64,000 bases of DNA from Candidatus Bathyarchaeota archaeon (GTDB taxonomy: Archaea; Thermoproteota; Bathyarchaeia; Bathyarchaeales; Bathycorpusculaceae), in assembly GCA_963828195.1 (NCBI GenBank), contig CAWHDT010000001.1, positions 96,001 through 160,000 on the forward strand. Direction: 5' to 3'. The position numbers and the translations under genes were made by a program. Shown in pieces: positions 1-50,817 of the stretch (position 1 is its first letter; the number at the start of each line of letters is the position of its first letter). Under the pieces are notes generated by a model that saw only the letters and a program-made list of their open reading frames with translations, did no database searches and was not told the origin of the DNA.

Positions 1-334
1 CCACGTAACCATCTCAAACGGCTGCATACTGGGCAACAACGTGTTCATCGCCCCTAACAGTTCACTTCTAAACGACAAGTACCCCAAGAGCTCATTCATG
101 ACACCCCCCATCATCAAAGACAACGTTGCAATCGGCGGAGGCGTCACCATACTGCCAGACGTAACGATAGAGGAGAGCGCTGTGATTGGCGGAGGAAGCG
201 TCGTCACCAAAAACGTTCCGCCGAGAACCGTCTTATCTGGCGTTCCAGCAAAGGTAGTTATGACGTTAAAAGAATATGAAGAAAAACGCGGCAAGTTCAT
301 CACATCAAGGATTGGGTGGATAACGGATAAATGA
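1..334 (+). CDS. Hexapeptide-repeat acyltransferase (sugar N-acetyltransferase-like), 5' truncated by the window edge
   Basis: Left-handed beta-helix repeats IKDNVAIGGGVTILPDVTIEESAVIGGGSVVTKNVP...GVPAK; frame appears open to the window start. Confidence 0.85.
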   Translation, partial: HVTISNGCILGNNVFIAPNSSLLNDKYPKSSFMTPPIIKDNVAIGGGVTILPDVTIEESAVIGGGSVVTKNVPPRTVLSGVPAKVVMTLKEYEEKRGKFITSRIGWITDK

Positions 335-48646: not shown

Positions 48647-48825
48647 CTTGCGGGTTTTTTAGTTATTTCCTTGTAAATGTATATAGCAAGATAGGCGAAA
48701 ATTGCGCCGATGAACATGTAAACGCCAGTGTAGCCTATGATTGCGTTATAAATGTTGGCGCCGACGAGGAATAGCAGAAAGCCAAGTAGGAATATTCCCA
48801 AGCATGCCCAGTCAGTCCAAGACAT
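48643..48825 (-). CDS. Small two-TM membrane protein
   Basis: 60 aa with two hydrophobic helices and a basic tail. Confidence 0.65.
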   Translation of the reverse strand: MSWTDWACLGIFLLGFLLFLVGANIYNAIIGYTGVYMFIGAIFAYLAIYIYKEITKKPAS

Positions 48826-48958
48826 CCGATTGCCTCATAGGATGCATTCAATAAAACTACAAGGTATATAGATTTACCGCCAAAGCTCTTACATTAATAT
48901 CTTGATGCTACAGCCCTAACCCCAAAAAAAAATTATAGCGAGAGACCGGTAAATTTCA

Positions 48959-49053
48959 TCCCGACATCTTCAAATGTTTTTCGGAGCATCCGACATTCTT
49001 ATATACAAGATAATATAATGGAAAGCCCTGAAGGTAATTAAATGTCGGGAGCA
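48959..49053. promoter_or_regulatory. fae-hps promoter with repeated CCGACAT/ATGTCGG motifs
   Basis: TCCCGACAT 48959, TCGGA-GCA-TCCGACAT 48981-48996, TATA CTTATATA 48998, ATGTCGGGAGCA 49042. Confidence 0.6.
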
Positions 49054-50484
49054 GATGTTAAGAAGCCAGAAACGCGGGAAGAACTTGTTAAAACGTTGAC
49101 GGAAGCAGCAAAAAAAGAGGTTGGCTCAAAAAATAAGCCGTCAAAACCGACAATAGTTGGAACGGCAAAAGAAATGGAGATTCACAGGGATACACTTTAT
49201 AGTTGGTTGAAGGAGTTCAATGTCGATTTTAAAGAAATTACTGACCACATACCGACAGATGTTGCCGATGCCCCTGAAGAAAAATCGGGGAAAACTTACC
49301 TAATCGGCGAATCTCTAGTCGGAGAAGGAAACGAAGTTGCACATATTGACCTTATGATCGGCGATAAGGATGGCCCGGTAGGTCAAGCATTCGCCAACGG
49401 CATGACAAGCTTGTCAGCAGGCCACACGCCGCTTCTGGCAGTCATAAGACCAAACTTGCCTCCGAAACCCCACACGCTAATAGTTCCCAAAGTAACCGTT
49501 AAGAACATGGCGGACACGGGAAAAATTTTTGGTCCCGCTCAAGCGGCGGTTGCCAAAGCCATCGCGGATTCAGCTGAAGAGGGAATCATCCCCCGTGAGC
49601 ATCTTGACGATTGGGTCATAATCTGCAGCGTCTTTATCCATCCCCAAGCAGTCGATTACAGAAGGATTTATCAGTACAATTACGGCGCAACAAAAATGGC
49701 GCTTCAACGGGCACTGAAGAATTACCCAACGTATGAAAAGATGATCTACGAAAAAGACCGCTCAAAACACCCGATCATGGGCTTCAAAGTACCACGCCTA
49801 TGGAGACCACCATACCTACAAATTGCGCTTGATGCACCCTCACTTGAAGCGGCGAAGAAGGTTCTTGAACAACTGCCAGGAAGCGACAGAATCATTATTG
49901 AAGCCGGAACTCCATTGATCAAACGCTATGGCACCAAAGTGATCAGCGAATTGCGGCAGATAGCCAAAGAAAAATTCATAATAGCTGACCTCAAAACGCT
50001 TGATGTAGGCAAAGTCGAAGTAGACATTGCATACGAAGACACGGCGGACGCAGTTGTTGCAGCAGGCTTAGGTCCAGCGGAAACTCTTGACGCTACAGTC
50101 AGCGAAGCCAGACGCATGGGAATCTACTCGGTCATCGACATGCTAAACGTGGAAGACGTCCTCGCAAAGCTTAAATCAGTTAAAGACCTGCCAGACATTG
50201 TTATCCTGCACAGAGGCATCGACATGGAAAACGGCAGAACCTGCGGGCTCGAACGCATAAAGATGATACGCCAAGCTTTCCCAAACAAAAAACTCCTCAT
50301 TGCAGTTGCAGGCGGCATCGTCCCAGAAACAGCCAAAGAAGCCTTGGAACAGGGCGCAGACATCCTAATCGTCGGCAGATACGTCACCCAGAGCAAAGAC
50401 ATCGAACGCAGCGTACGCGACTTTCTTGAGCTAACGCCAGCCATGCGGGAAGACATCGACCTCTACAGAGTCCACACAGAATAA
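49042..50484 (+). CDS. fae-hps: HTH-fused bifunctional formaldehyde-activating enzyme / 3-hexulose-6-phosphate synthase
   Basis: Fae: GEGNEVAHIDL, KVT, FGPAQAAVA, VFIHP; Hps: LQIALD, EAGTPLI, DLKTLD, HRGID, VAGG; extra ~84 aa N-terminus with HTH-like TAKEMEIHRDTLYSWLK. Confidence 0.93.
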   Translation: MSGADVKKPETREELVKTLTEAAKKEVGSKNKPSKPTIVGTAKEMEIHRDTLYSWLKEFNVDFKEITDHIPTDVADAPEEKSGKTYLIGESLVGEGNEVAHIDLMIGDKDGPVGQAFANGMTSLSAGHTPLLAVIRPNLPPKPHTLIVPKVTVKNMADTGKIFGPAQAAVAKAIADSAEEGIIPREHLDDWVIICSVFIHPQAVDYRRIYQYNYGATKMALQRALKNYPTYEKMIYEKDRSKHPIMGFKVPRLWRPPYLQIALDAPSLEAAKKVLEQLPGSDRIIIEAGTPLIKRYGTKVISELRQIAKEKFIIADLKTLDVGKVEVDIAYEDTADAVVAAGLGPAETLDATVSEARRMGIYSVIDMLNVEDVLAKLKSVKDLPDIVILHRGIDMENGRTCGLERIKMIRQAFPNKKLLIAVAGGIVPETAKEALEQGADILIVGRYVTQSKDIERSVRDFLELTPAMREDIDLYRVHTE

Positions 50485-50817
50485 ACCGAGATGAGGTCAC
50501 CAACCTTTTCTTTTATCTTATTTAATTTCTCCGCATCGACAGTGATAAAAAATGATTTATGCAATTTTTGAATAAACCAAACAACCTCAGTTTCTTAACG
50601 CTTATGCGCTTGCCTATTTGGCTCCTGTAGATGCGGCAATTAGGCAAATCCAGCAGTTTATTCTCCTTTTCGCCCGTAAGCTAGCCTGATATAACTGCGT
50701 TTAAAGCCCTGAACCAAAAAAGCAACTTAAGACAAACTTTGCTCAAATCTGCTTACCCTATAGACCGACCTATTATTTGTTCCAAAAAATCGCCACAAAT
50801 ATGGCTTAAAACTTTGT

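What the first reader, a model, noticed from the sequence alone, without database searches (positions are those of the whole stretch)
48959..50484. Fae-Hps formaldehyde enzyme fused to a Fis-like HTH, with candidate operators at its own promoter
Seen: about 84 extra residues precede Fae, including PTIVGTAKEMEIHRDTLYSWLKEFNVD, matching the Fis-type HTH pattern (AA..LGI.R.TLY..LK). There is no in-frame start codon between codon 56 and the Fae domain, and a TATA (48998) and SD-like AAGGT support ATG 49042. Fae and Hps catalytic motifs look intact. Around the promoter: TCCCGACAT (48959), palindrome TCGGA-GCA-TCCGACAT abutting the TATA (48981-48996), and ATGTCGGGA at the start codon, the exact reverse complement of the first site. 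Established: methanogen Fae-Hps links RuMP pentose synthesis to H4MPT formaldehyde capture and starts directly with Fae; Fae is pentameric. Inference: a trigger enzyme that senses formaldehyde, H4MPT or sugar phosphate and regulates its own gene, possibly looping several sites. I know of no description of this architecture.
Basis: partly seen in the sequence, partly recalled or inferred. Interest (0 to 1): 0.8.

Follow-up and report, generated by a model that had tools for sequence, protein, structure and literature searches.

The report
Formaldehyde enzyme with built-in DNA switch
In one large group of sediment and soil archaea the enzyme that links sugar-phosphate and formaldehyde metabolism carries a small DNA-binding head, and its own gene is studded with conserved matching DNA sites, so the enzyme most likely controls its own production.

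Summary
ORF 49042-50484 encodes a 480-aa Fae-Hps whose enzyme part starts at residue 86. Residues 1-67 form a conserved helix-turn-helix and residues 68-85 a variable linker.

The fusion is the normal form in one order of Bathyarchaeia: 130 of 201 genomes searched, almost always one copy.

The HTH is closest to small-terminase (gp3) and transposase-type HTHs, not specifically to Fis.

Comparative data support the operator idea:
- TCCGACA sits directly 5' of the TATA box in 77/80 and 53/58 orthologous loci.
- TGTCGG overlaps the start codon in 76/80 and 51/58.
- None of 19 HTH-less orthologues has the hexamer upstream.
- Three variants with a deleted or degenerate HTH have lost or damaged the sites.

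I also found conserved copies inside the coding region, at window 49147 and 49252. Site spacings are near multiples of 10.5 bp.

The distal site (48959) is conserved only in the nearest relatives.

Best reading: an autoregulating "trigger enzyme" whose oligomer binds a phased array of sites and probably represses. DNA binding and ligand control are untested. I found no published description. It is a new variant of a known kind.

The parts
48959..48967 (+). Distal copy TCCCGACAT (core CCGACA at 48961-48966), 29 bp upstream of the TATA-proximal site.
   Evidence: Exact in the window. A CCGACA at about -82 is shared by 4 of the 80 family loci (L037, L039, L047, L053). It is off the ~10.5-bp phase of the other sites. 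Weak or lineage-specific.
48989..48995 (+). TATA-proximal site TCCGACA, occupying the BRE position 3 nt upstream of the TATA box. Main candidate operator.
   Evidence: CCGACA next to a TATA box in 77 of 80 family loci and 53 of 58 order-level loci. It is not a general BRE consensus in this genome.
48999..49005 (+). TATA box TTATATA.
   Evidence: Read from the sequence. A TATA-like W-rich box is conserved at this place in the orthologues.
49030..49035 (+). Shine-Dalgarno-like GAAGGT, 6 nt before the ATG.
   Evidence: Read from the sequence. GAGG or AAGG is conserved at this place in the orthologues.
49043..49048 (-). Start-codon site TGTCGG (inverted CCGACA), overlapping codons 1-3 (ATG TCG GGA).
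   Evidence: Present in 76 of 80 and 51 of 58 loci, also where the start is GTG or TTG. Codon 2 is TCG in 77 of 77 family loci, while Ser elsewhere in the N-terminus is TCG in 7 of 155. TCG is 11.5% of Ser codons in the genome.
49042..49242 (+). N-terminal HTH domain, residues 1-67. The recognition helix is about residues 48-58 (HRDTLYSWLKE).
   Evidence: alignments; Pfam; AF2; structural neighbours are all HTH DNA-binding domains, Z 4.5-6.3; hhalign 98.3% to a small-terminase HTH.
49147..49152 (+). Intragenic CCGACA encoded by the invariant Pro36-Thr37 codons, 104 bp from the start-codon site.
   Evidence: CCGACA in 139 of 165 loci. About 6% is expected from codon usage. The distance to the start site is 104 bp in 96 loci and 116 bp in 26.
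49243..49296 (+). Variable linker, residues 68-85, predicted disordered.
   Evidence: Variable in alignment A1. pLDDT below 50 for residues 71-82.
49252..49257 (+). Second intragenic CCGACA (Pro71-Thr72 codons), 105 bp after the first.
   Evidence: CCGACA in 86 of 100 family loci. I did not examine it outside the family.
49303..49779 (+). Fae (formaldehyde-activating enzyme) domain, residues 88-246.
   Evidence: Pfam PF08714, E 7e-71. PDB 1y5y, E 2.4e-42.
49810..50421 (+). Hps (3-hexulose-6-phosphate synthase, OMPdecase/HUMPS fold) domain, residues 257-460.
   Evidence: Pfam PF00215, E 3e-35. PDB 9lj9 and 3f4w.
50506..50530 (+). T-rich stretch after the stop codon; possible archaeal terminator (inferred only).
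   Evidence: Read from the sequence. Not tested.

Best explanation
This is a bifunctional Fae-Hps enzyme of a Bathyarchaeia archaeon that has gained an N-terminal, roughly 65-residue tri-helical HTH. The HTH is related to the HTH of gp3-type small terminases and of transposases. A disordered linker of about 20 residues ties it to the enzyme.

Proposed mechanism:
- The HTH recognises the asymmetric element (T)TCCGACA.
- Copies of this element lie at the BRE/TATA position (48989), over the start codon (49043, inverted) and inside the 5' coding region (49147, 49252). Relatives have further copies upstream.
- Neighbouring copies lie near whole numbers of helical turns apart (about 31, 42, 52, 104 and 105 bp).
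- Fae domains assemble into pentamers, so the enzyme would carry several HTHs. These could bind the array cooperatively on one face of the DNA.
- Binding would cover the BRE/TATA and the start of the transcribed region and so shut down the enzyme's own gene (negative autoregulation).

What is shown here:
- the domain, its conservation and its translation;
- the sites, their conservation and their phasing;
- the co-occurrence of sites with the HTH and their decay where the HTH is lost.

What is inferred:
- that this HTH is the protein that binds the sites;
- that binding represses;
- that the enzyme's ligands (formaldehyde, H4MPT, ribulose-5-P or hexulose-6-P) or its oligomeric state modulate binding.
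For: Domain:
- The N-terminal 83 residues match 130 of 201 genomes of the order, nearly always once per genome and inside an open frame of about 480-540 aa. Outside the order they match 1 genome among the 301 class genomes searched.
- 840 database proteins match residues 1-90.
- The domain is under purifying selection.
- All 72 N-termini hit HTH_28 and HTH_23, and 70 hit GP3_package, at E <= 0.1.
- hhalign to a bona fide GP3_package protein gives 98.3% probability and 53% identity over 34 columns.
- The AF2 model is helical with an HTH layout.
- The 50 best VIA-align neighbours are all DNA-binding HTH domains.

Sites:
- The hexamer CCGACA/TGTCGG is the commonest 6-mer. It is present in 58 of 58 order-level upstream regions, against 3.5 in shuffles.
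- It is TATA-proximal in 77/80 and 53/58 loci and at the start codon in 76/80 and 51/58.
- The intragenic copies are exact in 139/165 and 86/100 loci despite rare codons.
- All three main sites are exact in 125 of 161 loci.
- Site spacings cluster at 31-32, 42-43, 51-54, 63 and 84-85 bp and at 104 or 116 bp.

Specificity:
- The BRE-site-plus-start-site architecture is unique in this genome.
- In 4 of the 5 complete relatives searched, the only AT-rich, TATA-bearing match is the fae-hps promoter; G104 had no match.
- It is not a general BRE.

Link between HTH and sites:
- 0 of 19 HTH-less orthologues from other orders have the hexamer in the 200 nt upstream.
- The in-frame HTH-deletion variant L114 carries a substitution in both sites.
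- L031 (HTH deleted) and L030 (recognition helix HR changed to QL) have no sites.
- These three are nested within the HTH-bearing genus clade.
Against: - No experiment or RNA data exist, and no RNA run could be listed.
- The HTH-bearing proteins form essentially one clade. The co-occurrence of HTH and motif is therefore few independent events: one gain, and one to three losses that group together at 88% SH-aLRT. A clade-specific separate regulator would give the same pattern.
- Single-site mismatches also occur in a few HTH-bearing loci, for example CCGGCA in L021 and TGTCGA in 6 loci.
- G225 has the HTH but only degenerate sites: ACGACA, TGTCGT and ATGTCAA.
- Structural matches are weak: Foldseek finds nothing at E <= 0.001 and VIA Z stays at or below 6.3, below the level that excludes a common helical arrangement.
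- All Pfam HTH hits are below gathering thresholds.
- My choice of start codons preferred TGTCGG starts, and the loci were picked by the HRDT[LIV][YF] motif. This inflates those counts somewhat.
- The phasing rests on two or three inherited architectures, not on many independent ones.
Confidence: 0.62

Rival explanations
1. The CCGACA array is a real cis-regulatory element, but a separate, unidentified transcription factor of this order reads it. On this view the fused HTH does something else, such as unspecific DNA or nucleoid tethering, or contact with another protein.
For: HTH and motif are both confined to one clade, so the correlation could be phylogenetic. G225 keeps the HTH with only degenerate sites. 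There is no direct binding evidence.
Against: The array occurs at no other promoter in the 5 genomes scanned. That would mean a dedicated factor for exactly the gene that carries an HTH. Both promoter sites are damaged or lost in the three variants with a deleted or degenerate HTH. The recognition helix is nearly invariant, as expected for a fixed target: H48 and R49 are over 90% conserved and D50, T51, Y53 and W55 are invariant in an alignment not selected on that motif (A1).
Confidence: 0.17
2. The fusion protein is a wider transcription factor. Besides its own gene it controls other C1, pentose or other genes through single CCGACA sites, and autoregulation is only one part of this.
For: Single TCCGACA/TGTCGGA copies exist in 32 intergenic places of the genome by crude gene calls. 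I did not annotate the genes next to them. A few CCGACA-plus-AT-rich matches lie before ORFs.
Against: The motif is not enriched genome-wide (291 against 290 expected) nor in intergenic DNA (32 of 247 copies, 13%, in about 19% non-coding DNA). The best second candidates lie inside probable coding sequence. No other locus has paired, phased sites.
Confidence: 0.1
3. The repeated hexamers act in the mRNA. UGUCGG at the start codon would pair with a downstream CCGACA and mask translation initiation.
For: The start-codon copy is the reverse complement of the two intragenic copies.
Against: The best-conserved copy lies upstream of the TATA box and would not be transcribed from this promoter. No compensatory change was seen: the 6 loci with TGTCGA at the start keep CCGACA inside. 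The stem would be only 6-7 bp across about 100 nt. There is no Rfam match.
Confidence: 0.04
4. The extension is an inert relic of a mobile-element or viral HTH, or an annotation artefact, and has no role.
For: It is similar to terminase and transposase HTHs.
Against: It is conserved over an order with strong purifying selection, and no alternative start exists. Nucleotide-level constraint on the matching sites is also seen.
Confidence: 0.02

Closest known systems
RbkR, the archaeal riboflavin kinase fused to an N-terminal wHTH (Rodionova et al. 2017, PMC5397151; I read the abstract and passages)
   Same: An archaeal metabolic enzyme with an N-terminal DNA-binding domain. Its operators were predicted by comparative genomics. 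It often regulates its own transcription unit, and some lineages carry the enzyme without the DNA-binding domain. It is called a 'trigger enzyme'.
   Different: RbkR has a MarR-type winged HTH, binds dyad operators and controls a multi-gene regulon. Its binding and effector control (CTP, FMN) are shown experimentally. Here the HTH is of the small-terminase/transposase type and the sites are single asymmetric 7-mers in a phased array that runs into the coding region. Only the enzyme's own gene appears to be a target. Nothing has been tested at the bench.
PutA, BirA and NadR (bacterial trigger enzymes; named in PMC5397151 section 14; details recalled)
   Same: Each is an enzyme with a DNA-binding domain in one chain that represses its own or its pathway's genes according to metabolic state.
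   Different: The folds of the DNA-binding domains differ (ribbon-helix-helix, winged HTH, HTH), as do the pathways. They are bacterial and act on sigma-70 promoters. None concerns C1 or pentose-phosphate metabolism.
Canonical Fae-Hps of methanogens (NCBIfam NF009833, 392 profile positions) and the HTH-less Fae-Hps of other Bathyarchaeia orders
   Same: The enzyme part matches full-length: residues 86-479 against profile positions 2-390. It is 63-69% identical to the HTH-less Bathyarchaeia forms.
   Different: Those start directly with Fae (open frames of about 394-411 aa). They have no CCGACA/TGTCGG in the 200 nt upstream (0 of 19).
N-terminal HTH of gp3-type small terminase subunits (Pfam GP3_package PF16677; example P0173)
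   Same: The sequences are homologous over the HTH core: hhalign 98.3%, 53% identity over 34 columns. From recall, small terminases are ring oligomers with peripheral HTHs that engage repeated DNA sites. That geometry resembles a Fae pentamer carrying tethered HTHs.
   Different: Only the HTH is shared. The terminase oligomerisation core is absent, and the window protein scores 13 bits against a cut-off of 29.4. The context is a cellular enzyme, not a virus.
   Same: A short HTH with a similar 'LGI.R.TLY..LK' pattern. 43 of 72 N-termini hit HTH_8 at E <= 0.1. The PDB profile search finds an NtrC-family DNA-binding domain at E 0.32.
   Different: The window protein does not hit HTH_8 at E <= 1. 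HTH_28, HTH_23 and GP3_package match more members with better E-values. From recall, Fis-type HTHs are C-terminal and act as dimers on dyad sites.

Membership tests
Bifunctional Fae/Hps (NCBIfam NF009833 / PRK13307) | Full-length match above the curated cut-off | tested here: met
   583.5 bits against a cut-off of 274; residues 86-479 align to profile positions 2-390 of 392.
Bifunctional Fae/Hps (NCBIfam NF009833 / PRK13307) | A Fae domain followed by an OMPdecase/HUMPS-fold Hps domain | tested here: met
   PF08714 at residues 88-246 (E 7e-71) and PF00215 at 257-460 (E 3e-35). PDB relatives are 1y5y and 9lj9.
Bifunctional Fae/Hps (NCBIfam NF009833 / PRK13307) | Catalytic activity of both domains | not testable with these tools
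   There is only conservation: many invariant columns in A3. I did not check individual catalytic residues against a solved structure.
Fis-type HTH (Pfam HTH_8, PF02954) | A match to the family model at its gathering score | tested here: not met
   The window protein has no HTH_8 hit at E <= 1. 43 of 72 relatives hit at E <= 0.1, best 2.2e-4, as sub-threshold matches.
gp3-type small terminase (Pfam GP3_package, PF16677) | A match to the family model at its gathering score, including the oligomerisation core | tested here: not met
   13.2-13.6 bits against a cut-off of 29.4. Only the HTH core (34 columns) aligns, at hhalign 98.3%.
Helix-turn-helix DNA-binding domain (Pfam clan HTH, tri-helical type) | A three-helix core with a helix-turn-helix and a conserved recognition helix | tested here: met
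   AF2 helices at 12-29, 38-44 and 49-58 (plus 63-69); pLDDT 70-88 in the core. 72 of 72 hit HTH_28 and HTH_23 at E <= 0.1. All 50 top VIA rows are HTH DNA-binding domains, but Z is at most 6.3 and so not decisive alone.
Trigger enzyme (enzyme with a DNA-binding domain that regulates its own or its pathway's genes) | An intact enzyme and a DNA-binding domain in one polypeptide | tested here: met
   It is a single open frame with no internal start.
Trigger enzyme (enzyme with a DNA-binding domain that regulates its own or its pathway's genes) | Conserved candidate operators at a target promoter that co-occur with the DNA-binding domain | tested here: met
   77/80 and 53/58 against 0/19; the sites decay in the 3 HTH-loss variants.
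Trigger enzyme (enzyme with a DNA-binding domain that regulates its own or its pathway's genes) | Demonstrated sequence-specific DNA binding and an effect on transcription | not testable with these tools
   Needs EMSA or footprinting and in vitro transcription.
Trigger enzyme (enzyme with a DNA-binding domain that regulates its own or its pathway's genes) | Binding modulated by the enzyme's substrate or product | not testable with these tools
   No data; pure inference.

The most novel reading that the evidence does not exclude
The pentamer-forming Fae-Hps enzyme uses its ring of tethered, terminase-derived HTHs to wrap or zip up about 320 bp of its own promoter and 5' coding DNA. It would do so through helically phased single sites, at about -105, -52, +2, +106 and +211 relative to the ATG in this family (the window itself lacks the -105 copy). 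On this reading a viral DNA-packaging recognition module has been domesticated into an enzyme-built repressosome. Its assembly would report formaldehyde, H4MPT or pentose-phosphate status.
Probability: 0.22. Interest if true: 0.85.

Novelty: new variant of a known kind. Interest (0 to 1): 0.7.

Why it matters
Bathyarchaeia are among the most abundant archaea in sediments and peat. They are almost uncultured, and virtually nothing is known about how they regulate genes.

This finding offers a complete, self-contained circuit to test: the factor, its 7-bp site and its target promoter. It can be tested with recombinant protein and a 300-bp DNA fragment.

It would add central C1 and pentose-phosphate metabolism to the short list of archaeal trigger enzymes. 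Fae-Hps both produces and captures toxic formaldehyde.

It also shows an unusual operator layout: single asymmetric sites a whole number of helical turns apart, two of them written into the codons of the DNA-binding domain itself.

Finally, it shows that hundreds of database entries named plain 'Fae/Hps' hide a regulatory domain.

Tried and rejected
- RNA evidence: no RNA holder was listed for window 48800-50600, so there is no transcript start or expression data.
- ESM Atlas on residues 1-72 gave no usable hit.
- Foldseek found nothing at E <= 0.001 against PDB or BFVD. VIA-align wide gave only middling Z, at most 6.3.
- The PDB sequence-profile search was weak: 2ao9 at E 0.033 and 4l5e at E 0.32.
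- Rfam on 48700-49300 gave no match.
- General BRE idea: rejected. The 14 nt upstream of 73, 145 and 30 TATA-like words in the genome show no CCGACA-like consensus.
- Regulon search in G000:
  - The pair at C3:89095 (51-bp spacing) lies inside a 239-aa ORF.
  - The CCGACA-plus-TATA match at C8:162989 probably lies inside a small minus-strand ORF. One Pfam call on its neighbour failed on my frame error and I did not repeat it.
  - 32 intergenic 7-mers were listed but not annotated.
- RNA-pairing idea: no compensatory changes were seen.
- The apparent standalone HTH in G025 (89-aa open frame) runs into the contig end, so it is a cut fusion.
- The short top hits of the representative search are fragments or frameshifted copies of the same fusion. 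Only P0141 shows the HTH joined to a different, unnamed C-terminal part.
- Complex prediction was not used. Oligomer geometry with DNA is outside what it tests.
- Supplements of the Bathyarchaeia genomics papers were closed. They could contain domain tables that mention this extension.
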